Positions 16,738-56,901 are shown, numbered from the stretch's first letter. The stretch is 64,000 nt of DNA from Bacilli bacterium (GCA_045628045.1 JAZQOV010000011.1:1-64000); one strand, 5' to 3'. Numbers and translations are program-made. The notes: generated by a model not told the origin, from the sequence alone.

Positions 16738-17622
16738 TTAATTTAATATTGATATATATTTATTCAATCTTTCCAATAAATATTTAGATATAAGTTTTTT
16801 CATTGGCTCAAGATTGTGCTTTAAATGAAATGCATCAAAAGCATCATAATAAGCACGTCTGTCGCTATATTTAATATCAATAGGTGGGAATCCTTGTTTC
16901 ATTAATTCTAGATTTAATAAGAGCCTTCCAGTTCTTCCGTTTCCATCAATAAAAGGGTGAATTGCTTCAAATTCAATATGGAATCTTGCTAATTTTGTAA
17001 CAATATCTTCATTAGATGTATTGTAGTTACAAATTAATTCATTCATTTTTGGTTCAATAGCATACGGTTGAACAGGTGTATGCTTTGAGCCCATTATTCT
17101 GACAGGGACCCTTCTGTAAACCCCTTTGTCTTGAGGTTGATCAGATAAAACCAAGGCATGTATTTGTTTAATTATACTTTCACCAATTTCAGTGTTTTCT
17201 TTCACTAAGTCGCATATAAAATCAAACGCTTCTTTGTGGCCAACAACTTCGAGATGATCTTTTAATGGTTTTTTGTCAATGGTAAGACCTCTTAGAACCA
17301 TATCCGTTTCTCTTAGTGTTAATGTATTACCTTCGATGGCGTTGCTGTTATATGTGAACTCTACAACGAATTCCTCATTTAATCTTTTAATTTCGCCAGG
17401 CGTTAATGGCCTTTTAGAATCTAATATATTTTTAAGTTCTAAAATTTTGGATAAATAGTTTTCGTTGTTTTTGATTCTGCCATCAATTGGTTTTACGGCA
17501 TCATCTGGTATAAACCACGTTTTTCCATACAATTCTGCTCCATCAATTTTGCCTTCTGCACAAAGAATGCGAATCCTTCTGTCAGATATATTCCATTTTA
17601 GACTAGCTTCTTTAGTATTCAT
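16738..17622 (-). CDS. Fic-family AMPylase with N-terminal excisionase/MerR-like HTH
   Basis: HPFIDGNGRTGR Fic motif; inhibitory SNAIEGN; N-terminal NTKEASLKWNISDRRIRILCAEGKI..GKTWFIP HTH; GGAGG SD. Confidence 0.9.
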   Translation of the reverse strand: MNTKEASLKWNISDRRIRILCAEGKIDGAELYGKTWFIPDDAVKPIDGRIKNNENYLSKILELKNILDSKRPLTPGEIKRLNEEFVVEFTYNSNAIEGNTLTLRETDMVLRGLTIDKKPLKDHLEVVGHKEAFDFICDLVKENTEIGESIIKQIHALVLSDQPQDKGVYRRVPVRIMGSKHTPVQPYAIEPKMNELICNYNTSNEDIVTKLARFHIEFEAIHPFIDGNGRTGRLLLNLELMKQGFPPIDIKYSDRRAYYDAFDAFHLKHNLEPMKKLISKYLLERLNKYISILN

Positions 17623-17641
17623 TATCGATTGCCTCCGACTT

Positions 17642-17698
17642 TATCGGAATAATAATAACACATATCGGAATAATAATAAAGCAATATCGGAATAATAT
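17642..17698. promoter_or_regulatory. Three direct repeats TATCGGAA(A)TAATA upstream of the HTH-Fic gene; likely autoregulatory operator
   Basis: Copies at ~17642, ~17663 and ~17685, about 21-22 bp apart (two helical turns). Confidence 0.6.
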
Positions 17699-17970
17699 TA
17701 AAAATGTGTTTTTGTTTCACGATTATAACGATTTGGGATACGTACCTAATTTGTTACACCAAAAGTGTAACCGCGTGTATCGGTGACTAGTAGTAACACG
17801 TGATTACAAGTGACATGTTTGTTAACATCGAGGTAGGGTTGCAAAAATGTATGTAACACGGTAATAAAATGGTAATGGTTTTCCTATTGTTTTTGACAAA
17901 AATTTAGTTTCAGTATAATACAGTTATATGACAGCCACGTATAGGCAAAACACTAATCATACGTCTTGTT

Positions 17971-18018
17971 ACGGTACATGTGGAGACTGTCGTTTCGTTA
18001 ATTTTTAAGCAAAAATAG
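17971..18018 (+). repeat. Second, diverged copy of the rlmD 3' end (att-like scar)
   Basis: acg gta cat gtg gag act gtc gtt tcg tta = TVHVETVVSLIFKQK* versus rlmD tail TFHVETVVCLCLK* (16672-16713). Confidence 0.75.
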
Positions 18019-18078
18019 CAAATTGTTGTTGCTCCCTGCAATTTGACTTTTATATATTGTTTCTTTACAATTCATATT

Positions 18079-20493
18079 ATGAATTACTTTAAAAACATCA
18101 GTAAAAACACAAAAATATTGGCGATTTTGCCGTCATTTTTCTTAACTCTAGTTTCGTTTGTCTCGATAGGACACGACAAAATATCTGAAGTAAAAGCAGA
18201 AGAAAATAAGATTTTTATAGCAATTGATAGCACAGAAGGAATTGGCTACATTTCGTCTGTCGATAATGATTTAATTCGTGGGACAAATTATTTTTGCGAA
18301 GTTGATCCAACTTTAACTCGTTCAGCGACAATCTTTTTACAAGATAAATACCAAGGATCCCAAGATTACTTAGGAGACATAAAAAAAGTCGTAATTTTAG
18401 ATAATGTCGAGCTTAATAACTGTTCCTTCCTCTTTGGAAATCTCGAAAATCTAGAAACTATTGAGAATTTAGGAAACATTAGTGTTCCAGTATGTTCATC
18501 TTTCGAATATATGTTCAGTGGTTCTCCAAAATTAAGAGAAGTGGATTTTACAGGTTTTGATGTTTCTAATTGCAGTAGTTTTAAAAACATGTTTTATGAC
18601 TGTGCACTTGAAACAATAGATTTATCTGATTTTGACACTTCAAGTTGTGGTGATTTCCACTATATGTTCGATTCATGTCGCAATTTAACATCCTTAGATT
18701 TATCTTCTTTTGATACAAGAAATGCTTCGTCAATGGTAGGCATGTTTTCTGGATGCTCTTCATTAGAATATCTCGATATTTCAAGTTTTGATTTATCAAA
18801 TAGCCCACGCACTGATGAATTTTTATTTGGCACAAAACCAAAAGTTATTGTTGCGCCTAAGTGTGTTCCGGAGCACGCAGTTGATAATATTGTTAAATTT
18901 GATCTTCCTCAAGAAACAGAAGAAAAACCTTACTATTATGATTATGACCTCAACACTTATGAGGAAATGGCTGAATCCAATAAATCTATAACTTATTATC
19001 ACCACTCATTAATACGTACGCTTGAATCTGCGTCGTTTACTTGTTCAAATTCTTTTAAAGAATACGAAGATTTAGATAATTTAGATATTGATGAATTAAT
19101 TTCGCATTGGGACTTCCTTTACGATACGCTTTTTGGATTTCTTCCAAAGAAAGACAATGAACCAATTTACACAATTTTAGAAAAATGCAAGGCTGACACC
19201 ATCAACGTTGAAGTAGGAAAATGGCTCACTATTTATGACAAGGTTTATCCACACTATTGCCATGCTTTACAAGAATGTGGTGGAGACTTTTTGAATAGAT
19301 GTCCAGACGCATTAGATCCTGATGGTCTTGTTCATATTGGAGTAAATACAGATGAAAATATTGGTTATCTTTCTTCTTTTGATACCTACGAAATCTTAAA
19401 ATCTGATTTGCGAACAAAAGTCGATTTATCCGTGAAAACCATAGGAAATTCAGTATTTTCTCTCTTAGATTCGAATGGATATGAAGATATTACTAAAGTC
19501 GTAATTCAAGATGAAATTAGTCTTTCGGATTGCTCAAATTTCTTTAAAGGTTTGACCAATCTTGTTTTAATTGATGGAATGAAAAAAGTAAATACTGAGC
19601 TCAACACAAAATGTATTTCAATGTTTGAGGATTGTTCTAAATTAGAATCTGTTGACTTATCTGCATTTAACACAGAGAAGGTTATTGTTACAGATTGCAT
19701 GTTTAAAGGATGCGTATCGTTAGGAGAAATTACTGGACTTTCTTTCACCTCAAAAACATTAGTTTCTATGTCAGAGATGTTCTCAGGATGCCAAGCCTTA
19801 GTATTACTTGATTTATCTAGTTATGATTTAACTAACGTAGAAAACACCTTTAATTGTATTTATAATACAACTCCTAATTATATTAAGACTCCAAAAGCGA
19901 TGCCTACTAAAGCAAATTGCGATATAGATTTGTATTTCCCTATGGGCATTATAAATTTTGGTTACTACGATTTGTCTTTTGCTACATACACCAAATTACC
20001 AAGTATCAATAGTTCCATTACATTAATTAGTGAAATCGGCAAATATGTCTTAGAAGATTTCTGTGATGATTTTGGTAAAGACACCGCGTATTATTGCGAT
20101 GCAAACGGAAATACAGCAGAAGCAAAATTAATTAGTCTTTGGGAAGGGCAATCTAAGGAATTCAATAAGCACTTTAAAGGTACTCAACACGAATGTTTAT
20201 TAGAATTCTTTGGGAAAGATAATTCTTCATGTACTAACACTTCATTGAAGAATTTCTCGGCAAAATATGACTATATTTACGGAAAATACCAATCATTTTT
20301 AGATGAACATGGTGGAGATTTCGCTAATAGATCAAAGCTTATTTCATTCCCAAATAGTTCAGCATTTATTCGTTTCAATCACACTACAAATGAGTCATCT
20401 GTTTTAATAATTTGTATTATTTCTATTGCTAGCGTTTCAACATTAATTTGTTTAGTGTTTACAAAAAAGCGTATTTCTGCTAAAAGGAAATAA
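18079..20493 (+). CDS. BspA/DUF285-type leucine-rich repeat surface protein with two-fold internal duplication
   Basis: MFxxCxxLxxLDLSSFDT repeats in two blocks; both halves start IxIGIxxxExIGYLSS-like and end GGDF(L/A)NR; signal peptide and C-terminal TM; TTGACT-17-TACAAT promoter places the start at ATG 18079. Confidence 0.85.
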   Translation: MNYFKNISKNTKILAILPSFFLTLVSFVSIGHDKISEVKAEENKIFIAIDSTEGIGYISSVDNDLIRGTNYFCEVDPTLTRSATIFLQDKYQGSQDYLGDIKKVVILDNVELNNCSFLFGNLENLETIENLGNISVPVCSSFEYMFSGSPKLREVDFTGFDVSNCSSFKNMFYDCALETIDLSDFDTSSCGDFHYMFDSCRNLTSLDLSSFDTRNASSMVGMFSGCSSLEYLDISSFDLSNSPRTDEFLFGTKPKVIVAPKCVPEHAVDNIVKFDLPQETEEKPYYYDYDLNTYEEMAESNKSITYYHHSLIRTLESASFTCSNSFKEYEDLDNLDIDELISHWDFLYDTLFGFLPKKDNEPIYTILEKCKADTINVEVGKWLTIYDKVYPHYCHALQECGGDFLNRCPDALDPDGLVHIGVNTDENIGYLSSFDTYEILKSDLRTKVDLSVKTIGNSVFSLLDSNGYEDITKVVIQDEISLSDCSNFFKGLTNLVLIDGMKKVNTELNTKCISMFEDCSKLESVDLSAFNTEKVIVTDCMFKGCVSLGEITGLSFTSKTLVSMSEMFSGCQALVLLDLSSYDLTNVENTFNCIYNTTPNYIKTPKAMPTKANCDIDLYFPMGIINFGYYDLSFATYTKLPSINSSITLISEIGKYVLEDFCDDFGKDTAYYCDANGNTAEAKLISLWEGQSKEFNKHFKGTQHECLLEFFGKDNSSCTNTSLKNFSAKYDYIYGKYQSFLDEHGGDFANRSKLISFPNSSAFIRFNHTTNESSVLIICIISIASVSTLICLVFTKKRISAKRK

Positions 20494-20518
20494 TTAAGTA
20501 ATATAGGAGGAATAAATA

Positions 20519-21436
20519 ATGAAAAATAACTTTAATAAGGCAGCGTTGTTATTACCAATTATTTTAACTTCGTGTTCTTTAGCGACTTCCGGAGAAAAAG
20601 CAAAAAATTTTTACGACAAAATTTGTGATGAGATAATAGAATTTGGAAACCCTAGAGATGATGATTTTGCTATTTCTTTCAAAGGTCGTTACAAAATTGG
20701 TGATGTCGAGATTAGAAATATTGACGGCTTTTTCGATGGTAGATTTATAAATATTATTGGTGATTATTATAACGAAAGACTGACCGCAAAATATTATACA
20801 TTTGATGAACTAGGCGAAAACGGATTGCCTTATCCATATACTTACTCATCTTTGTTAAATTCAGAAAATGAAACAGTTCTTGTTAGTAGAAGAAAACCAT
20901 TTGATGGAATACAAAATTATTGTGTTTTCCCGGACAAAATTGATGAATATAACGAAATTTACAATAATATTTTTAGAGTTTCGATATGTATAATGGAGTA
21001 TGGATTATTTGCTTCTGATCGTTATAGTGAAGAATCGCTCAAACAAGTTTTCTTGTTAGCTGATGAAGAAAGAATTGAATTTGATTTATCAGATCGCGTT
21101 AAGTATAGTTATGAAAAGAATGAAAATCTTGTTTTTACGATTTCTAGCGATTTAGATTCAATTGGGCCTTTTACTATTCTTTCTCCGGATCAATCAGTCA
21201 GATTTGCATATTGGAATAAAATGGCAAACGGACCGACAGGAAATTATTGGAAGAAAATCACGGTAGATAAGAAAACATATCAAGTTAAGAAAGTTGAAGT
21301 TTCATATAAAGGAATTGATACAAGATTATTACCAGGCGCGTCGACAGACTTTTATTTTGAATTTGAGCCTCGTGAGCAAAGCACTTCATCTTATAAAGAT
21401 CAATTTAAGATAAGTTGCGATTCATATTTTGATTAA
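20519..21436 (+). CDS. Hypothetical lipoprotein
   Basis: Lipobox LTSC; GGAGG SD. Confidence 0.7.
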   Translation: MKNNFNKAALLLPIILTSCSLATSGEKAKNFYDKICDEIIEFGNPRDDDFAISFKGRYKIGDVEIRNIDGFFDGRFINIIGDYYNERLTAKYYTFDELGENGLPYPYTYSSLLNSENETVLVSRRKPFDGIQNYCVFPDKIDEYNEIYNNIFRVSICIMEYGLFASDRYSEESLKQVFLLADEERIEFDLSDRVKYSYEKNENLVFTISSDLDSIGPFTILSPDQSVRFAYWNKMANGPTGNYWKKITVDKKTYQVKKVEVSYKGIDTRLLPGASTDFYFEFEPREQSTSSYKDQFKISCDSYFD

Positions 21437-21442
21437 GATAAA

Positions 21443-21470
21443 GCATCCTTAAAAGGATGCATTTTCTTTT
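21443..21470 (+). terminator. Intrinsic terminator
   Basis: gcatcctt-aa-aaggatgc followed by a T-rich tail. Confidence 0.75.
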
Positions 21471-21534
21471 TAAAAATGGATTTTTAGAAAATAATTAATT
21501 GAATCTTTGCATCAAAATTAGTTATAATATTTTT

Positions 21535-21609
21535 ACCACAATACACCTTATGGTGTGATTAGTGATTAAGATCGGTGTTTCGACCGCTTAGTGCGGTGCC
21601 GGTCTTTTT
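21535..21609 (+). ncRNA. Putative small RNA, orphan copy
   Basis: Own promoter; hairpin ACACC-UUAU-GGUGU; terminator AAGAUCGG..CCGGUCUUUUU; near-identical to 21804-21879. Confidence 0.6.
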
Positions 21610-21669
21610 CTTTCCGGATAAAGTTTATATATTGTATTTTACATAATATTATTCTTTGTTATAATAATG

Positions 21670-21734
21670 ATGCGGTTGCGATAAAAGGCTTATGCCTCGC
21701 AGTGCAATTAGGGCACCTTAATGGCAGCCTTTTT
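21670..21734 (+). ncRNA. Putative second-type small RNA
   Basis: TTTACA(21638)-16-TATAAT(21660) with TG extension; GC-rich structured transcript (AGGC-UUAU-GCCU hairpin, GGUUGC/GCAGCC closing stem) ending in a U-run. Confidence 0.5.
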
Positions 21735-21803
21735 CTTTTTAAAAATAATATTTTAGAAAATAATGAATTGAATTTTTACATCAAAATTAGTTATAATATT
21801 TTT

Positions 21804-21879
21804 ACCACAATACACCTTATGGTGTGATTAGTGATAAAGATCGGTGTTTCGACCGCTTAGCGCGGTGCCGGTCTTTTTT
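21804..21879 (+). ncRNA. Putative cis-antisense small RNA overlapping the 3' end of the 21828-22223 ORF
   Basis: Promoter 21768/21792, two hairpins and a U-run; overlaps the last ~17 codons of the minus-strand ORF. Confidence 0.65.
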
Positions 21880-22223
21880 CTTTCTAGATAAAGTTCATAT
21901 ATTGTATCTGACTTAAGAACATCCTTTTTGGACAACCCCCTTTTTATGTACTTCTCGCTATAGGTTTTCGCAGGGTAACTCCTAATTCTTTGTATAAAAT
22001 AACTCTGCAACGAATTATTTACTTTAAATGGTTTACATAACTTCGTATTTGCCTTGCCTTCCGAATAAGGCTTTGAAGTCAAAAAAACACTTGATAAGAT
22101 TAGCCCATCTTTTGTAGCTATAATTGCTTTAATGTGGCCATAATGTCCATGTTTATAATTATAACGAATTTGCCCAATTCTATAATTTCTTCCGATATTG
22201 ATTTTAATAATTTGTTTGCACAT
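21828..22223 (-). CDS. Basic 131 aa protein, possibly a MazF/PemK/ToxN-fold RNase
   Basis: AAGGAG SD and extended -10; motif order GQIRY..VFLTSK..QSYF.QRIRSY..GLSKKD resembles MazF GDIW..VPLTS..S.I..DQIR..G.LS..D (by eye only). Confidence 0.5.
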   Translation of the reverse strand: MCKQIIKINIGRNYRIGQIRYNYKHGHYGHIKAIIATKDGLILSSVFLTSKPYSEGKANTKLCKPFKVNNSLQSYFIQRIRSYPAKTYSEKYIKRGLSKKDVLKSDTIYELYLERKKTGTALSGRNTDLYH

Positions 22224-22238
22224 GTTGTTGTCTCCTTG

Positions 22239-22326
22239 GGCTCAAGAATATTTTACCATCTCTAAAGCAAGCCGATTCCCGTTTTTCATAACATTTTAAA
22301 GAACATAGTTCTTTCTTTTTAAAATT
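22239..22326 (-). promoter_or_regulatory. 88 bp promoter module, also found at 56814-56901
   Basis: About 12 mismatches in 88 nt by manual alignment; contains extended -10 TGnTAAAAT and palindrome AAAGAAC-N3-GTTCTTT. Confidence 0.85.
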
Positions 22327-22385
22327 CAACATTTTTAGAAAACAATGAATTGAATTTTTTCATCAAAATTAGTTATAATATTTTT

Positions 22386-22510
22386 ACCATAAAGAGTACG
22401 GCGAGGGACAAGCCCTATGACCCGTCAGCAACCTGCGTATAGCAAGGTGCTAAAGCTTGACTGATGGTTGTTTTTATTTTATAAGCCGTCAGTATCGATG
22501 GCTTTTAATT
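22386..22510 (+). promoter_or_regulatory. SAM riboswitch (SAM-I clan, P4-less / SAM-I/IV-like) with terminator expression platform
   Basis: P1 ACCAU/AUGGU, AAGAG, P2 with GAGGGA..CCC..UGA kink-turn, P3 AGCAACC..GGUGCU, pseudoknot CAAGC/GCUUG; downstream terminator aagccgtc..gatggctt-tt whose 5' arm can alternatively pair with ACUGAUGGUU. Confidence 0.85.
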
Positions 22511-22536
22511 TCTTTGTGGTAGATAAGGAGGCTTAT

Positions 22537-22791
22537 ATGCCACAGAAAACATTACAAAACGATCTTTACGTAGTCGTTATCTCTTCTAAAGAAGAAAGAG
22601 ATGAACTTAAAGCATTATGCGTAAAACATAACATTCCTCTTCTTTATCCAGAGTTATTTAAGGAAGAGGAGATTCATCACTTATGGGGAATCTCTAAAAA
22701 CGGTGTTGCTTTAGTGGGCACAATGATTGCAAGACATACACCTAAAGAGAATATATTTCATTCTGTTAAAGAACTGGAATGTATTCTCTAA
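22537..22791 (+). CDS. Hypothetical 84 aa protein under the SAM riboswitch
   Basis: AAGGAGG SD before ATG 22537; no recognised family. Confidence 0.7.
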   Translation: MPQKTLQNDLYVVVISSKEERDELKALCVKHNIPLLYPELFKEEEIHHLWGISKNGVALVGTMIARHTPKENIFHSVKELECIL

Positions 22792-23066
22792 TATCTTTTC
22801 TTGATAGAGAAGCGTAAGCAAGTTCTCGTATAACAAGAAAAGTGCGCTAAATTTCAATCCTTAAATGTCTATTAAATTAGCATCACGGTTAACACTTGCT
22901 CGTATTTACTAGGGGAAGCGGTAGTTATCTTTTCTTAAATTGCGCTATTTCCTGCCAATAAACAAGACTGGTTGTATTGGCTTTTTGTGTACTAAGAAAA
23001 GCAAATTTCGATATTGAAATACTGCATATTTTTTAGTAAAATATATTCAGTAAAAGAAAGGTTAAT

Positions 23067-24125
23067 ATGCACAAATTCAGTTATGATTTTATAAAAAATC
23101 AAATTTTAACCTCAAATCTTTTTTCGCTTTCAAGCATTATTATAGATCTTAAAGAAAAAGCATCTAGCAAAAAACAAAACAAAGAAAAACTTTTTAAAAA
23201 GCTTGAGACTATTGCAATTAAAGATTCTGTCGAAGCATCAAATGCAATTGAAGGAATCTACACAACTGGGGATCGTATTGAAGAAATTGTTGATAATGGC
23301 TCCACACCTCTTACGCATGACGAAGAAGAAATTGCAGGTTATAGGGACGCAATTATTTTTGTTAAAGAAAACTATCAATATTTAAGTTTTGATGAGACCA
23401 CAATCAAAAAACTTCATTCAATGTTATTTTCAAGGCATACCGGTTCACATAAGGGCGGTGAATATAAAAAAGAAGATAATATTATTGCGGAAAGAAACAA
23501 GAACGGAACAATAAAAAAAGTTATTTTTAAAACAGTGCCTGCTAAGGATGTTGAAAAGCAAATGAAAGAGTTTGTTTTGGCTCATCAAGTAGCGAGAGAC
23601 GATTACTCAATTCCTGGCTTGTTATTAATCCCGTGTGTTATTGTTGATTTTCTCGCCATTCACCCTTTTCAAGATGGCAATGGTAGATTATCTCGTTTAT
23701 TAATGCTTTTGCTTTTATTCAAGGAAGGCATTGATATTGGTAAATATATATCACTTGAAAAAATGATCAATGAATACAAGTTTAATTATTATGAATCACT
23801 TCAATCTTCTCAACTAGGTTGGCATGAGAACAAATCTAATTATCAGCCATTCATTGTGTTTACGTTTCAAATCATATATGAATGTTACAAAAAGATTAAT
23901 GAACGTTTCCTCATTATGACTAGCAATAAGATGAGTAAGAAAGAAATCATTGAAGAAACAATTAAACAAAGTTTAGTGCCAGTTTCAAAAGAGGAAATTC
24001 ATTCTTTATTTCCAGATATTTCTATTACTACTATTGAAGCTCAATTGTCTAATTTACAAAAGTTAAACAAGATAACTAAAATAGGAACATTTAAGAACGC
24101 TAAATATTTATATAACAAAAAATAA
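23067..24125 (+). CDS. Fic-family protein with C-terminal winged HTH
   Basis: HPFQDGNGRLSR; SNAIEG; C-terminal ISITTIEAQLSNLQKLNKITKIG. Confidence 0.9.
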   Translation: MHKFSYDFIKNQILTSNLFSLSSIIIDLKEKASSKKQNKEKLFKKLETIAIKDSVEASNAIEGIYTTGDRIEEIVDNGSTPLTHDEEEIAGYRDAIIFVKENYQYLSFDETTIKKLHSMLFSRHTGSHKGGEYKKEDNIIAERNKNGTIKKVIFKTVPAKDVEKQMKEFVLAHQVARDDYSIPGLLLIPCVIVDFLAIHPFQDGNGRLSRLLMLLLLFKEGIDIGKYISLEKMINEYKFNYYESLQSSQLGWHENKSNYQPFIVFTFQIIYECYKKINERFLIMTSNKMSKKEIIEETIKQSLVPVSKEEIHSLFPDISITTIEAQLSNLQKLNKITKIGTFKNAKYLYNKK

Positions 24126-24573
24126 TAAAGATAACATAACGACTTAAGATGATGTCTGATGACAATACAGGAATGTATGGCGATTCAGCACTTAATGTAA
24201 AGTAATCAATGAACTTTAAAGGTTCATAGATAAAATAGTTATTCTCCAAGCTAGAGGTAATTGGTAAAGAAGCATTCTTAAACAAAGAGTTAAATAAATC
24301 ATTAGAGATGTATCCACCTCTTTGAAGAATGTTTCTTGCATTTATCTTTCCGATTGTCATTGAGTCAATCCAAAAGGCCGGGGATGAACAAAGATTTTAG
24401 ACCCACCGATTTCGGGTGGTCTGAAGTGAAACCAGGTGAAAATGCATTTACTATGTCGCCGACAAGATGGATAAATTTAACAAACGCTAGGAAGACGGAA
24501 ACCTATAGCTTTTCTTATTATCTTAACTACTCCTAGCCTCCCTTATATCAAAAGGAAGGAAATATAAAAAAAT

Positions 24574-24617
24574 ATATCAAATTTGATATTGATTAAAAAT
24601 GTATATTTTGCTATATT
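24574..24617 (+). promoter_or_regulatory. Perfect 16 bp palindrome ATATCAAATTTGATAT abutting the TA operon promoter
   Basis: Palindrome 24574-24589; TTGATT(24589)-17-TATATT(24612) with TG extension. Confidence 0.7.
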
Positions 24618-24635
24618 AGTGATGAGGTTAGTATT

Positions 24636-25205
24636 ATGAGCAAGAAAAATTTAAAACTTAAATATGTAGTTCCTTATATGGGGTTAATTTATATACTTTG
24701 TTTTGATGACGGTTCTAGACGTGAACTTGATTGCAACATTCTCATCAAAGAAAAACCTGAATTTAACGTATTAAACAATAATGAAGTATTTTGGTATGCA
24801 ACAGTGGACCGTTTTCAAAAAAATATTGTTTTCACTGAAAAGCTATCTTTATCAATTGATGATGCTTTGAAATACAGCAGAGTTTACGATGTCAAAAAAG
24901 AAAATAAAAAGACCATGAAAATGATTTATAACATTGGCAGAGAAACACGCAAAAGACAAAGAATAACTCAGAATCAAATGGCGGACATGATTGGTGTGCC
25001 GCAAAGCTCTATAGCAAGACTTGAAAAAGGGGATCTTGATGTTCAATTATCAACGATTCTTAATTATCTTTCACCTTTAGGCTTGACTCTAGAAATTAGA
25101 GGTAAAGACACTCCTAACAAAACAACTTTAAAAGCAATGTTTGAAAAAGATCACAAAAAATCATTTAATTCAATGGATGAACTTTTAGCAGATTTAAGAT
25201 CATGA
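24636..25205 (+). CDS. Chimeric antitoxin: DUF2442-like + XRE HTH + DinJ/RelB-like C-terminal tail
   Basis: LCFDDGSRRELD..F..ATVD (DUF2442-like); RKRQRITQNQMADMIGVPQSSIARLEKG (HTH_3); TPNKTTLKAM..KSFNSMDELLADL (DinJ tail). Confidence 0.7.
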   Translation: MSKKNLKLKYVVPYMGLIYILCFDDGSRRELDCNILIKEKPEFNVLNNNEVFWYATVDRFQKNIVFTEKLSLSIDDALKYSRVYDVKKENKKTMKMIYNIGRETRKRQRITQNQMADMIGVPQSSIARLEKGDLDVQLSTILNYLSPLGLTLEIRGKDTPNKTTLKAMFEKDHKKSFNSMDELLADLRS

Positions 25206-25516
25206 TTTACGAAGTTAAAAGAACAAAACAATTTAAAAAAGATTTCAAATTAGCAGAAAAACAAGGTCGAAATCTTGAACGACTCATTGAGGCAATTGAT
25301 TTATTAAGAAAAGGTGAAAGCTTACCTGAAGATTTTCTTGATCATCCTTTAACAAATTTTCGTTCAAAATTTAGAGAATGTCATATTGAACCTGATTTTC
25401 TTCTTGTTTATGAAATTAGAAAACAATATTTGATACTTAAATTGATAAGATTGGGAACACATTCAGAATTGTTTGATAATAGCTCTTTAAAAGATATCGA
25501 TAAAAATAATATATAG
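25202..25516 (+). CDS. yafQ: YafQ-family mRNA interferase toxin
   Basis: TKQFKKD, DHPL, RECHIEPDFLLVY, LIRLGTHSELF; ATGA overlap with the antitoxin. Confidence 0.9.
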   Translation: MIYEVKRTKQFKKDFKLAEKQGRNLERLIEAIDLLRKGESLPEDFLDHPLTNFRSKFRECHIEPDFLLVYEIRKQYLILKLIRLGTHSELFDNSSLKDIDKNNI

Positions 25517-25683
25517 ATACCTATTCAAATTCGTGCCTTAGGAACCTGTCGATAATAAGAATTTTAAACGTGTCGAATTCGATGCGTTTAAAATTGCCTT
25601 TAAAAGTAACTCCTTTTTTTAATTATTAATTTCTCACAACGCATATTACGTAGAACATAAAATTATGTTAAAATAATAAAAGC

Positions 25684-27819
25684 ATGATTACCAAAAGTAT
25701 TATTAAAGATTTTGTACATAGAAGATGCCCTTATTTAGCGAAGGCATCTTTAGATGATAATTCATTACTCAAGTTAATTGAAAGTTATTTAGAGTTTGGC
25801 ACTAAAGAAGATATTGAAGAAGCTATCCTTATGGGAGAGCAAGATGAACAAGATGATCCAAACTCTGATAACACGTTTGATATTCTAGAAATAATGAAAG
25901 ATTACCCTTATCTAAGAGGGGACATTGAAAAGCTCATTGATAAACACGCGAAAGAAAACCCGGTTTATGATCTTCAAAAGAAATATGATGATTCTCAAGT
26001 TAGTGCGAGACTCTCTAGAAAATACATTGAACTTATTTATGGCAAAGAAAACTGCAAAAGATGCGATGTAAATGACTTTGGAGCGGAAACCTCTAATCAG
26101 AAGTTTATCGTGGAACGCACCAAAGAATATCTAAAAGATAAAAGCGTAAAAGTTCTTTTTGAAGGCCAAGTCGAACATAATGACTTAAGAGCAAGATTTG
26201 ACGTTTTAATTAAAGAAGATAATGGCACTTTTACTCTTATTGAGGCTAAAGGAAGTAATTCTCCATTTACTCATCCAGATAAAAAGCCTGAAATTGATAG
26301 CGGAATTAAAATTCCTTATTTATACGACCTTCTCTTCCAATATTATATTTACGTAAAAGAAGGTCTTAATATTTCAAAACTTGGTTATCTTCATCTTAAT
26401 AAGGAATTCACATTTTCAAAGGAAAATGTAAACTATCCTGATTTATGTGATGAAGATATTAAGAATTTATTCAAACTTTCTTTTGAATTAAATTTAAAAA
26501 TTAAAAAGGATGAAACGGAACTAGTTCCTATCATCACATATTTTGATTCTGAGTTATACCTTAAACGAAACAAAGATGGTGAACCTACCATAACACCTAT
26601 TGAAGATGTTATTTACGAGATACGTTCTTTGGCTACCAAGTTTGAAATTAACCCTAACAAGCATTATGAATGTGTGAAAGGTGGAAAATGTCCTTTCTTA
26701 TTATCATGCTTTAGCGATGCGGATGATGAAAACTCAATTTTAAAGCTCACTAGATGGGGCTCCTTTGGCGGATACTGGGGACGTTCTAAAAAGGCCCTCG
26801 AAGAAGGTATTTTACGTATTTCTGATTTACCTACAGCTTACATTGAAGAATATTCCTTACAAAGTGAAAAAGACGGCGTTATTAAGTATGGAAACGCAAG
26901 GTCTCAGATTTCCTTCCAACGTGAGTGGAAAGACAAAGGCTTTGACTACGTCATCCATACGAAATTAATGGAAGAAATCTTACGTAGAGACTACCTAAAT
27001 GATGAGATTGATTACCTTGTTTTCTTTGACTTTGAATCAATCCAAAATCCTGTGCCTTTGATGAGGGACGCTCATCCATGGCAACAGGTTGTTACCCAAT
27101 ACTCAATGCACATTGTTAAGAAGGGTTATGACCTCACAAAACATGACTTTGCGAAAGGAAGAGGTGGAGATTGTTCTCACTACGAATTCATTGGACATCC
27201 ATCAAAAGATGGATATGTTAATCCTGAATTTGCATTATTTAAGACTTTAAGGGACCATCTTATTGATTTTGGTATTAATCCAATGGCGAAGAATTATCGC
27301 GTTGTTGTCTTTAACCAAAATTTTGAAAAAACAAGAATGAATGAGTTTGTAAGACTTTACATTTCTCATCCTGAAGTTGACGCGGATTTAGTCAACTTTG
27401 TGCAGAATTTTAATGACAATGTCGTTGATCTTCTTGATTTCTTCACAAGTGGCAGTTTTTATGGCAAAAAATTCAACGGAAGAGGCTCATTAAAGGTTGT
27501 TCAACCAACATTATGTGAAGACGAAGATGTTCAAGCTTATTACGAGTCAATTAAGCTATCTTTTGACCTAAAACATTCCCTTGATTATCACAAAGAAGGC
27601 GCACTTGTTTATAATGGCGGAATCTGCCTTGATTTATACAAAGCTTTGCTTATGAGGAATCACAAAAATCCTCAAGATAATGACCCGGATGAAGAGAAAA
27701 TGCTTGCTCAAGCACTTGCGTATTGCAAGATCGATTCGTGGGGAACTGTTATCATTTATGACGTTCTAAAGCACGTCTTAGATGGTAAGATAAAAATCAA
27801 AGCGAAATTCTTATCTTAA
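25684..27819 (+). CDS. DUF2779-type protein: N-terminal PD-(D/E)XK nuclease-like plus C-terminal RNase H/DEDD-like domain
   Basis: ARFDVL..LIEAKGS, DLLFQYY; FFDFES, PWQQVVTQYSMH, FNQNFEK, SLKVVQP, YCKIDS. Confidence 0.75.
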   Translation: MITKSIIKDFVHRRCPYLAKASLDDNSLLKLIESYLEFGTKEDIEEAILMGEQDEQDDPNSDNTFDILEIMKDYPYLRGDIEKLIDKHAKENPVYDLQKKYDDSQVSARLSRKYIELIYGKENCKRCDVNDFGAETSNQKFIVERTKEYLKDKSVKVLFEGQVEHNDLRARFDVLIKEDNGTFTLIEAKGSNSPFTHPDKKPEIDSGIKIPYLYDLLFQYYIYVKEGLNISKLGYLHLNKEFTFSKENVNYPDLCDEDIKNLFKLSFELNLKIKKDETELVPIITYFDSELYLKRNKDGEPTITPIEDVIYEIRSLATKFEINPNKHYECVKGGKCPFLLSCFSDADDENSILKLTRWGSFGGYWGRSKKALEEGILRISDLPTAYIEEYSLQSEKDGVIKYGNARSQISFQREWKDKGFDYVIHTKLMEEILRRDYLNDEIDYLVFFDFESIQNPVPLMRDAHPWQQVVTQYSMHIVKKGYDLTKHDFAKGRGGDCSHYEFIGHPSKDGYVNPEFALFKTLRDHLIDFGINPMAKNYRVVVFNQNFEKTRMNEFVRLYISHPEVDADLVNFVQNFNDNVVDLLDFFTSGSFYGKKFNGRGSLKVVQPTLCEDEDVQAYYESIKLSFDLKHSLDYHKEGALVYNGGICLDLYKALLMRNHKNPQDNDPDEEKMLAQALAYCKIDSWGTVIIYDVLKHVLDGKIKIKAKFLS

Positions 27820-27825
27820 TATTTG

Positions 27826-27849
27826 AAGAGAGACTTAGTCTCTTTTTTT
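27826..27849 (+). terminator. Intrinsic terminator
   Basis: aagagagac-tta-gtctct followed by a T-run. Confidence 0.8.
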
Positions 27850-28062
27850 ATTTATAAAAGAATTAAATTAAATTGAAATTTTTTCCGTTTTCCAAAATTC
27901 AAAAATTTTAATACTTTGTATTAGAAAAGTTTTTTAACATTATTGCAAAAAAATCTCTAATTAGTATGTGAAAGGTTTACAAGACACCTGGAAAGGAAAT
28001 GACTTTAAAACATTGCTGTGCGACATAATTTGGTATATAATTTAGCCACAAGGTGAAAACTT

Positions 28063-28320
28063 ATGAATATAATACCAATGAGAGATTTAAAAAATACCGT
28101 TAATATAGAAAAACTTTGCGCAACTTCAAAGGCACCAGTCTTTGTTACTAAAAATGGATATGGAAGTTTAGTTGTTATGAATATCGAGTGTTTTGAAAAA
28201 ATACTTGAGCAAGCTTATGAAACAGTCGAACTCAAAAAGGGAATGGAAGATATAGAAAATGGCAGAGTAAGAAATGGCAACGATGTTTTGAATGACATAA
28301 AAACAAAATTTGGATTTTGA
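28063..28320 (+). CDS. Phd/YefM-family antitoxin
   Basis: IIPMRDLKN..PVFVTKNGYGSLVVMNIE. Confidence 0.9.
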   Translation: MNIIPMRDLKNTVNIEKLCATSKAPVFVTKNGYGSLVVMNIECFEKILEQAYETVELKKGMEDIENGRVRNGNDVLNDIKTKFGF

Positions 28321-56043: not shown

Positions 56044-56813
56044 ACTTATATTATACTATCATTTCTTAAGAAATGATAGTGTTATTTCATTTTTTGCTTG
56101 CAATTCATCCCGCCGCTTTACGAGCTTCAAGCGTGGGTCTTCTTGCTAAATTAGATAAATCTAAAACCTGAGCCTAGTTCTAAAAGGAATTCTTTCATGT
56201 GCGTTATAATACCTTTTTCAATTTCTTTTTCCCTAAGGTTAAAACCTTTTTTGAAGAAATTAATTACAATCGGATCTACCATTACATCTTTTGGTTCAAC
56301 AATCTGATTCCCAAGAGTGGATAATTGATTCTTTTTTGCCTCTATATTTTCTTTTGAGCCCAGTAAGATTCTTTGATAGTATCCCGATTGTATTTGTCTT
56401 TTTAAATCCCTGACAGACCATCTTTGTTTTGCACACTCTATTTCATAGAATTTTCTTTCTTCATCATTTTTTACATTTAGAAGACAAAAGTAATGCCCCC
56501 ATGATAAAGTGGGAAACAGTGTTTCCCAATTTTTATATATAATATAAAAATTTAACATTGCTTTAATGTTTCTTCTTGAATACCCAGAGCCGAATTCTTT
56601 GGTTAGCTCATTAGAAATTGAACTAATCGTGCGCTTTTTATAATCGCTTTTTCCTTTATTGGAGTCGATGTCTTTTTGAATTTGTTCCCCTATATACATA
56701 TAAAGCTTAAGTAATTCAGTATTAACGTTATATATGATTTTTGCCTTCGTTGTTTCTATTGCATTTTTTAAATTTATTACTAGTTTATTTTCTTTCATAA
56801 CCTTTCCTCCTCC

Positions 56814-56901
56814 GGCTTAAGAACATTTTAACATCTCTGAGGCTAACTGATTCCCGTTTTTCATAACACTCTAAAGAACAAAGTTCTTTCTTTTGAAAAT
56901 T
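56814..56901 (-). promoter_or_regulatory. Second copy of the 88 bp promoter module (see 22239-22326)
   Basis: gattcccgtttttcataaca..aaagaac-aaa-gttctttctttt shared with the first copy. Confidence 0.85.

What the first reader, a model, noticed from the sequence alone, without database searches (positions are those of the whole stretch)
21465..22389. Array punctuated by three copies of one promoter, each driving a structured RNA
A ~70 bp TTGAAT-18-TATAAT block occurs three times and the similarity breaks right after the predicted start (…TTTTACCA). Copies 1 and 2 lead into a two-hairpin sRNA; copy 3 leads into a SAM riboswitch whose P1 begins with that ACCA. The layout repeat-cassette(~200 bp)-repeat-cassette(~510 bp)-repeat suggests modules added or swapped by recombination at the promoter, so each new RNA gains expression.
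Basis: partly seen in the sequence, partly recalled or inferred. Interest (0 to 1): 0.7.

Follow-up and report, generated by a model that had tools for sequence, protein, structure and literature searches.

The report
Ribonuclease-like toxin facing small-RNA array
The repeated promoters point short hairpin RNAs head-on at an overlooked small gene predicted to be an RNA-cutting toxin, a gene-plus-RNA pairing that recurs across many gut Bacilli and is likely an undescribed toxin-antitoxin family with stacked RNA antidotes.

Summary
The three promoter copies are real and occur nowhere else in the genome. Its predicted structure best matches MazF/PemK ribonuclease toxins and the type III toxin CptN (Z 7-8), but it has no Pfam, PHROG or NCBIfam family.

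Relatives occur in 45 of 401 genomes sampled from the family. In 41 of 50 loci a convergent hairpin RNA ends at the stop codon (control genes: 47 of 797), often as 2-3 stacked RNAs of different types. No protein antitoxin gene lies beside the ORF, and no Rfam family matches the RNAs.

Copy 1 is a ~215-nt duplicate carrying a toxin-gene remnant, and a fourth promoter drives another RNA. Copy 3 belongs to a genuine SAM-I riboswitch, which stays in strains that lack the whole 1.85-kb insert.

Best reading: a toxin-antitoxin family with RNA antitoxins, fitting neither type I nor type III as defined (about 0.67 overall). Direct binding is slightly favoured over antisense. Toxicity and transcription are untested.

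The parts
21443..21460 (.). Terminator-like hairpin scored on both strands; ends the upstream lipoprotein-like gene and could end the toxin mRNA
21463..21541 (+). Promoter block copy 1 (-35 at 21499, -10 ending 21528)
21535..21612 (+). Predicted small RNA 1: hairpin unit a (21537-21564) plus stem/bulge/hairpin unit b with U-tail (21569-21609); likely an orphan duplicate antitoxin
   Evidence: fold z -4.5; top hit, E 0.037, of a model built only from other genomes
21562..21657 (-). Remnant of the toxin-like gene's 3' end (residues 114-131 at 83%; upstream part interrupted by stops)
21638..21665 (+). Fourth, different sigma70-type promoter (11 of 12 consensus, TG before the -10)
21670..21738 (+). 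Predicted small RNA of two stacked hairpin units (c, d) with U-tail; candidate orphan antitoxin(s) of other types
   Evidence: folding not significant alone (z -1.0)
21732..21810 (+). Promoter block copy 2 (-35 at 21768, -10 ending 21797)
21804..21882 (+). Predicted small RNA 2, convergent with and overlapping the last ~55 nt of the 131-aa ORF; candidate cognate antitoxin
   Evidence: fold z -3.9; second hit of model R1
21828..22223 (-). 131-aa basic ORF (P0001, pI 10.0), predicted MazF/PemK-like fold; family residues His27 and Asp101 invariant, Ser/Thr49 in 65 of 67
22232..22326 (-). Leader of the toxin-like ORF (RBS, extended -10-like element, 19-nt motif at 22274-22292); 85% identical to the leader of the DUF1016 gene at 56807-56901
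22312..22392 (+). Promoter block copy 3, most likely the native promoter of the SAM riboswitch; kept from 22344 on in strains lacking the insert
22384..22470 (+). SAM-I riboswitch aptamer (variant without P4)
22483..22504 (+). Riboswitch terminator; its 5' arm can instead pair with the 3' strand of P1
22537..22791 (+). 84-aa ORF of unknown function (P0002) behind the riboswitch
   Evidence: similar ORFs follow the riboswitch in relatives

Best explanation
The locus is likely a toxin-antitoxin module in which a predicted MazF/PemK-fold ribonuclease (minus strand, 21828-22223) is held in check by a short hairpin RNA predicted to be transcribed head-on from promoter copy 2, most likely by the RNA binding the protein directly. 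SHOWN: the ORF, its homologs, the conserved convergent promoter-stem-loop-U-tail unit, covariation in its stems, stacking of several RNA types, strain variation. PREDICTED: the fold. INFERRED: transcription, RNase activity (His27/Thr49 in place of MazF's Arg/Thr), toxicity, neutralisation, and that extra RNAs (copy 1, units a, c, d) are orphans left when earlier toxin genes decayed, which would keep immunity against related toxins. The module sits beside a SAM-I riboswitch gene and probably took over copies of its promoter by local recombination. Probability that it is an RNA-antitoxin TA system by either mechanism is about 0.67; the figure below is for the direct-binding version.
For: FOLD: AlphaFold2 model from 67 sequences, pLDDT 89, pTM 0.82. 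In VIA-align the top six chains are MazF (Z 8.2-7.2, 97-100 residues, rmsd 3.1-4.1), then CptN (Z 7.0, 103 residues); the best non-toxin chain is Z 6.8 over 62 residues. Foldseek's top two hits are a mycobacterial toxin endoribonuclease (E 0.017, 0.037). The Atlas lead was a cluster with 16% PemK members. RESIDUES: His27 in 67 of 67, Ser/Thr49 in 65 of 67, 22 apart, versus 23 for MazF-bs Arg25/Thr48 (PMC10893535). NO PROTEIN ANTITOXIN: a small same-strand ORF lies directly upstream in 1 of 47 loci. PARTNER RNA: a long-loop stem with U-tail ends within -90..+40 of the stop in 41 of 50 family loci, against 47 of 797 control ORFs and 21 of 246 that are followed by a gap; 18 of 29 in a later set. 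STRUCTURE: in 19 RNAs of one type, 8 of 10 pairs change on both sides, covariation 0.49 against at most 0.15 for slid controls, while the internal-loop letters stay. Family median pI 10.3, 28% Lys+Arg. ARRAYS: 12 of 50 loci have two or more units, often of a type that is proximal to another toxin subgroup. Copy 1 carries a toxin remnant. A new three-RNA array lies beside a weakly matching partial ORF (L129).
Against: No activity, toxicity, binding or transcript was measured. The fold scores are middling: no Foldseek E at or below 0.001, and the first, shallower model ranked KOW/Tudor domains first. Profile comparison with one PemK protein is insignificant (probability 3%). The catalytic Arg is absent, and the His-for-Arg mapping was not checked residue by residue. 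The detector was designed after seeing the loci, and genomes are related. Fifteen of the 19 aligned RNAs were picked by a pattern demanding the loop letters and P1 pairing, so those two features are partly circular. The window's RNA matches the model only weakly (E 0.037, outer stem only), and the detector missed it as a proximal unit. Three distant loci (L141, L142, L151) show no RNA by eye. RNA types differ completely between subgroups while the convergent position is constant, which is what an antisense mechanism predicts.
Confidence: 0.37

Rival explanations
1. Same toxin-antitoxin module, but the RNA acts as a cis-antisense (type I-like) antitoxin. The toxin mRNA reads through the RNA gene(s), forms a duplex at its 3' end and is degraded; orphan RNAs would silence incoming modules in trans.
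For: The convergent 3' geometry is near-invariant across subgroups with unrelated RNA sequences and is the arrangement of Gram-positive type I loci (PMC4147584). Only 3 of 45 proximal stems have a U-tail on the ORF strand, so the mRNA probably runs across the RNA gene. A two-way terminator lies beyond the array in the window. Many apical loops fit a U-turn (YUNR) pattern typical of antisense recognition loops (by eye; recalled knowledge).
Against: The RNAs are short and closed by their own terminator stem, and usually end 3-15 nt beyond the stop, so they barely touch the coding sequence. Unpaired loop letters are kept while stems covary, which free cis-complementarity does not need. The nearest RNA-inhibited structural relative, CptN, is inhibited by direct binding.
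Confidence: 0.3
2. The protein is not a toxin but an SH3-fold RNA-binding or RNA-processing protein that forms a ribonucleoprotein with these RNAs for another purpose (regulation, or targeting by the variable loops).
For: The catalytic Arg of MazF is absent. SH3-like barrels of other kinds score close behind (Z 6-6.8). Several RNA types sit beside one protein. The protein is very basic.
Against: The full-length matches are toxins. The variable parts of the RNAs are paired hairpins, not long single-stranded guides. Patchy, multi-copy occurrence with frameshifted copies (L091, L093) and TA-rich neighbourhoods (Fic, YafQ, Phd in this window) fit selfish TA modules.
Confidence: 0.15
3. One reading: the hairpins are terminators or unrelated sRNAs shuffled behind a recombinogenic promoter, with no functional tie to the ORF.
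For: Strain alleles break at the promoter block. One RNA-first hit lies with its promoter but no family ORF within 3 kb (L131), and one is at a contig end (L130).
Against: The block exists only here in the genome, whereas the ORF-RNA pairing recurs with other promoters in dozens of genomes. Each stem has its own -10 element a few bases upstream with no ORF between (31 of 50 by detector).
Confidence: 0.1

Closest known systems
Type III toxin-antitoxin systems (ToxIN, CptIN, TenpIN/AbiQ)
   Same: Toxin with a MazF/Kid/CcdB-like fold (CptN Z 7.0; PMC5086642); partner is a small structured RNA in several copies; RNA type follows toxin subgroup.
   Different: The RNA lies downstream on the opposite strand with its own promoter and terminator, not upstream in a bicistronic operon. 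Units are nested hairpins of differing types, not tandem repeats of one pseudoknot. No ToxN/CptN family match.
Gram-positive type I systems with 3' overlap (txpA/RatA, bsrG/SR4, par Fst/RNAII); SymE/SymR as nuclease-type exception
   Same: Convergent sRNA meeting the toxin gene at its 3' end (PMC4147584).
   Different: The toxin is a 95-135-aa basic beta-barrel, not a hydrophobic peptide. Most RNAs are only 35-60 nt and often stacked. SymR overlaps the start of symE, not the end.
Type II MazEF / PemIK / Kis-Kid
   Same: Predicted fold over ~100 residues; Thr/Ser at the expected place.
   Different: No adjacent protein antitoxin (1 of 47 loci with a small upstream ORF); His instead of the catalytic Arg; no PF02452 match.
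pemK RNA motif (Rfam RF02913)
   Same: By its name, a short structured RNA associated with PemK-type genes (association recalled; the paper's supplement could not be read).
   Different: Its model does not hit these RNAs in 5 genomes that carry the modules (best E 0.9, elsewhere).
SAM-I riboswitch (RF00162)
   Same: Copy 3 leader scores above the gathering threshold and has a terminator/antiterminator platform.
   Different: No P4, a mismatch at the top of P1, and followed by small unknown ORFs rather than recognisable methionine or SAM genes in most relatives seen.

Membership tests
Type III TA | Toxin with MazF/Kid-like fold | tested here: met
   Predicted model; MazF Z 8.2-7.2, CptN Z 7.0, rmsd 3.1-4.1 over 97-103 residues; middling scores
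Type III TA | Antitoxin upstream of the toxin in one operon, separated by a terminator | tested here: not met
   RNA is downstream and on the opposite strand; definition from PMC5086642
Type III TA | Tandem array of near-identical repeats on one transcript | tested here: not met
   Units mostly have their own promoter and U-tail and differ in type; a few loci stack 2-3 unlike units on one transcript
Type III TA | Pseudoknotted antitoxin | not tested
   Only nested structures were computed
Type III TA | Direct RNA-protein inhibition and processing of the RNA by the toxin | not testable with these tools
   Needs biochemistry
Type I TA (Gram-positive) | Convergent sRNA overlapping the toxin transcript's 3' end | tested here: inconclusive
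   Gene geometry fits (41 of 50; ~55 nt of coding overlap in the window); transcript ends unknown
Type I TA (Gram-positive) | Small hydrophobic toxin peptide | tested here: not met
   131-aa basic beta-barrel; SymE and RalR are known exceptions
Type I TA (Gram-positive) | Neutralisation by base-pairing to the mRNA | not testable with these tools
   No RNA data
Type II MazEF/PemIK | Adjacent protein antitoxin gene | tested here: not met
   1 of 47 loci with an ORF of at most 150 aa ending within 60 nt upstream; 2 loci with a close downstream ORF
Type II MazEF/PemIK | Catalytic Arg and Thr | tested here: inconclusive
   His27 67 of 67 and Ser/Thr49 65 of 67 at similar spacing; no residue-level structural mapping
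Type II MazEF/PemIK | PemK_toxin profile (PF02452) | tested here: not met
   0 of 67 members at E 0.05; none in G000
pemK RNA motif RF02913 | Covariance-model score over 34.8 bits | tested here: not met
   0 of 5 genomes; no hit in Rfam scans of window 18000-26000 and 29 loci
SAM-I riboswitch | RF00162 score over the gathering threshold | tested here: met
   51.8 vs 44.4 bits
SAM-I riboswitch | Expression platform | tested here: met
   Terminator 22483-22504 and alternative pairing with the P1 3' strand
SAM-I riboswitch | Binds SAM and controls sulfur or methionine genes | tested here: inconclusive
   Downstream ORF has no Pfam family; binding untested

The most novel reading that the evidence does not exclude
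A widespread, unclassified family of His-catalysed MazF-fold ribonucleases is neutralised by 35-60-nt hairpin RNAs that bind the protein. Hosts accumulate orphan RNAs of several specificities as an acquired immunity library against incoming toxin modules. Some toxin genes are wired to competence-type transcription (behind radC or comF, or behind a shared alternative-promoter motif), so they would switch on when DNA is taken up.
Probability: 0.22. Interest if true: 0.88.

Novelty: new variant of a known kind. Interest (0 to 1): 0.72.

Why it matters
RNA-neutralised ribonuclease toxins are known from few families, and those defined as type III have the antitoxin upstream as a repeat array. This would add a family with the gene geometry of type I and the protein fold of types II and III, so it bears directly on how MazF-like toxins switched between protein and RNA antitoxins. 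The RNAs are tiny and come in cognate types with natural orphans, so specificity and cross-immunity can be tested with a small toxin-by-RNA matrix. The proteins escape Pfam, PHROGs and NCBIfam and the RNAs escape Rfam, so these loci are invisible to those libraries; this genome holds three. New sequence-specific RNases are also useful reagents.

Tried and rejected
SEQUENCE LIBRARIES. No meaningful Pfam, PHROGs, NCBIfam or PDB-sequence match for the 67 family members. Rfam scans of window 18000-26000 and 29 loci gave no match to the convergent RNAs; COG3943 RNA lies upstream of two distant members.

COLLECTIONS. The pemK RNA motif was rejected. Pattern scans found nothing in viral contigs or in the first metagenome scan; the second gave two 19-residue matches that were not followed. 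The genome-contig scan returned only the G017 locus again. One member (L090) found nothing in phage or plasmid records.

BLOCK AS A DISPERSED REPEAT. Rejected: three copies only. A BLASTN of the region over 60 relatives gave strong matches only to the riboswitch and the 84-aa ORF, not to the block or the RNAs.

EXPRESSION. No RNA holder listed; this is no evidence either way.

MODELS. The first structure model (11 sequences, pLDDT 74) gave ambiguous SH3-type matches. The viral fold library gave no hit at E 0.001, with PemK-like rows among weak ones. A homodimer prediction was not run, so the oligomeric state is open.

OWN ANALYSES OF LIMITED WEIGHT. The regex typing of RNAs on the protein tree (12 changes vs 25.9 shuffled) mislabelled several proximal RNAs as distal and is confounded by linkage, so it is only descriptive. 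The apical-loop word count (30 of 53 vs 12.8 +/- 2.7) used a motif chosen after the fact and includes duplicate rows.

LITERATURE. Searches listed no paper describing this arrangement. The library lacks most subscription papers, and the supplements of PMC5737381, PMC8040213 and the Minerva preprint, which list many RNA motifs, were not seen.

Full report
OBSERVATION. The window is contig C11 of a 1.07-Mb, 96% complete, ~33% GC genome. A same-genus relative's record is titled a Bacilli MAG from horse faeces (its locus is identical to that of G017). The 62-nt block at 21480, 21749 and 22331 is 92% identical, carries TTGAAT-18-TATAAT and occurs only three times in the genome. Copies 1 and 2 are part of a ~215-nt duplication and lead into 78-nt folds with z -4.5 and -3.9. 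Copy 3 leads into a SAM-I riboswitch, a terminator and an 84-aa ORF with no family.

The longer cassette contains a 131-aa ORF on the minus strand (21828-22223, P0001) with an RBS; its last ~55 nt are the reverse complement of RNA 2. The shorter cassette contains a remnant of the same gene's 3' end (83% over residues 114-131) and a fourth promoter (21638-21665) with a further U-tailed RNA. The order is therefore: promoter, RNA, remnant; promoter, RNA; promoter, RNA facing an intact gene; then the riboswitch unit.

THE PROTEIN FAMILY. Close homologs are few (21 cluster representatives at E 0.001). Iterated profiles find the family in 45 of 401 genomes sampled from the taxonomic family and in 22 of 400 sampled from the phylum, including other families of the class. 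G000 has three copies (C11, C3:42706-43038, C6:173919-174149). Members are mostly 95-135 aa and basic (median pI 10.3), and none of 67 matches Pfam, PHROGs, NCBIfam or PDB sequences meaningfully. A model from the 67-sequence alignment (pLDDT 89) aligns best with MazF toxins (Z 8.2-7.2, 97-100 residues), then the type III toxin CptN (Z 7.0, 103 residues), with Kid and CcdB at Z 6.4 and 6.3; unrelated SH3-type domains reach Z 6.8 over about 60 residues. Foldseek ranks a mycobacterial toxin endoribonuclease first but at E 0.017, and a shallower model was ambiguous. His27 and Asp101 are invariant and Ser/Thr49 is present in 65 of 67. MazF needs an Arg and a Thr 23 residues apart (PMC10893535, passages), so His27/Thr49 is my inferred catalytic pair. 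A small upstream ORF that could be a protein antitoxin was found in 1 of 47 loci.

THE RNA PARTNER. On the opposite strand, just past the stop codon, the loci carry a -10 element followed within a few bases by an outer stem, an internal loop, an inner hairpin and a U-tail. A simple detector found such a unit ending within -90..+40 of the stop in 41 of 50 loci, against 47 of 797 G000 ORFs and 21 of 246 followed by a gap; 31 of 50 had a unit with a -10 element (control 22 of 797), and 12 of 50 had two or more units. In a later set it found 18 of 29 (at least four repeat earlier loci). By eye several misses there have a unit, while L141, L142 and L151 have none. The detector was written after seeing the loci, and the genomes are related. 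For the commonest type (19 sequences) 8 of 10 pairs change on both sides, with covariation 0.49 against 0.25 in shuffles and at most 0.15 in slid controls. The loop letters and outer-stem pairing were selection criteria for 15 of the 19; the inner stem was not (2 of 3 pairs covary). A model built from these, without window sequence, ranks the two window units first in the 64 kb, though weakly (E 0.037, outer stem only). Searched alone in 150 genomes it gave 7 hits in 6 genomes: four known loci, one new three-RNA array beside a weakly matching partial ORF, one orphan, and one at a contig end. No Rfam family matches the RNAs. RNA types cluster on the protein tree, as both linkage and cognate pairing predict. 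Distal RNAs are often of a type that is proximal to another subgroup (L071, L083, L097, L100).

STRAIN VARIATION AND THE PROMOTER BLOCK. Contigs from gut metagenomes show several alleles. X3 and X4 and X10, from three studies, join 20491 to 22344: lipoprotein gene, all RNAs and P0001 are absent while the copy-3 promoter and riboswitch remain. X4 also joins 20487 to 21489, X1 has a long contig from 21647 onward without copy 1, and X7 places 101 other bases before unit b. The joints fall where the end of the upstream gene resembles the start of the block. Some joints rest on one low-depth contig laid at 85-88% likeness and may come from related species. In another species (G032) the riboswitch has a similar promoter, while RNA genes of the family elsewhere use different promoters. 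I infer that the block belongs to the riboswitch and was copied onto the RNA genes locally.

MECHANISM. A MazF-fold protein with no protein partner and a constant, separately promoted RNA neighbour is most simply a toxin with an RNA antitoxin (about 0.67). Type III systems are defined by an upstream repeat array in one operon (PMC5086642, passages), which is not met. Gram-positive type I systems overlap at the 3' ends (PMC4147584, passages), which fits the geometry but not the toxin. For direct binding: short closed RNAs, loops kept while stems covary, little overlap with the coding sequence, a basic surface, and CptN as a fold relative. For antisense: constant convergence despite unrelated RNA types, and probable read-through of the mRNA (3 of 45 stems have a U-tail on the ORF strand). 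I put them at 0.37 and 0.30; both could operate. Orphan RNAs beside a remnant suggest repeated arrival of modules at one site, with loss of the toxin and retention of the RNA.

A POSSIBLE LINK TO COMPETENCE (inferred). Five toxin genes directly follow a RadC-like gene (Pfam-confirmed for L116; the other four by resemblance) and one follows a ComF-like gene. The window's toxin leader carries a 19-nt motif found at five sites in G000 (0-2 in shuffles at the same tolerance), ahead of a DUF1016 gene, an rRNA methylase gene and two ORFs without Pfam hits that I recognise from memory as recX-like and ssb-like. That radC and comF are competence-regulon genes is recalled, not tested.

PRIOR ART. Six literature searches listed no description of this arrangement. 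I read passages only of PMC5737381, PMC5086642, PMC4147584, PMC7781912, PMC10893535, PMC8040213 and bioRxiv 10.64898/2026.09.22.753630. Their supplements, which list many unnamed RNA motifs, were not seen and could contain these RNAs. Earlier scan notes gave nothing by sequence or place and two loosely worded hits.

VERDICT. Observation partly confirmed; interpretation partly supported; most likely a new variant of RNA-antitoxin toxin-antitoxin system; interest 0.72.

Noticed in passing
window 22794-22842; G000:C2 124727-131590: The hairpin right after the 84-aa ORF is the 3' half of a ~90-nt repeat that occurs five times on contig C2 between accessory genes, like the sites of an integron-type cassette array. 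It is very common in gut metagenome contigs, and one strain joins RNA unit b straight to it. No recombinase was looked for.
   Followed up: partly
window 22384-22530; L023-L033: SAM-I-like riboswitches in this group share a variant top of P1 and lack P4, end in a segment complementary to their own 5' end near the RBS, and precede diverse small unknown ORFs rather than recognisable methionine genes; possible altered ligand or a mobile expression cassette.
   Followed up: partly
window 22274-22292 and 56849-56867; G000 C2:62108, C3:56730, C11:103246: A 19-nt motif at five sites (four exact) 50-70 nt before start codons in four cases; candidate alternative-sigma or competence promoter element.
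   Followed up: partly
L069, L072, L097, L099, L100, L116: Toxin-like genes sit directly behind radC-like or comF-like genes on the same strand.
   Followed up: partly
L052 (G017) 1300-1480: Further promoter-hairpin-U-tail units lie upstream of the toxin-like gene, on the same strand as the convergent RNA.
   Followed up: no
L055/L060 (G019): The module lies among small ORFs, one membrane-type, and an HTH repressor, resembling an integrated small phage or plasmid; resemblance by eye.
   Followed up: no
L062, L137 and related loci (L095, L096, L105, L106): A distant subgroup has a longer (~130-nt) convergent RNA, lies next to tRNA genes, and has a COG3943 RNA upstream of the ORF.
   Followed up: no
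window 16738-28320: The neighbourhood is rich in TA-type genes: two Fic genes, an HTH plus YafQ pair and a Phd/YefM antitoxin.
   Followed up: no
L091, L093: The toxin-like gene is split by a frameshift while the RNA gene is intact.
   Followed up: no
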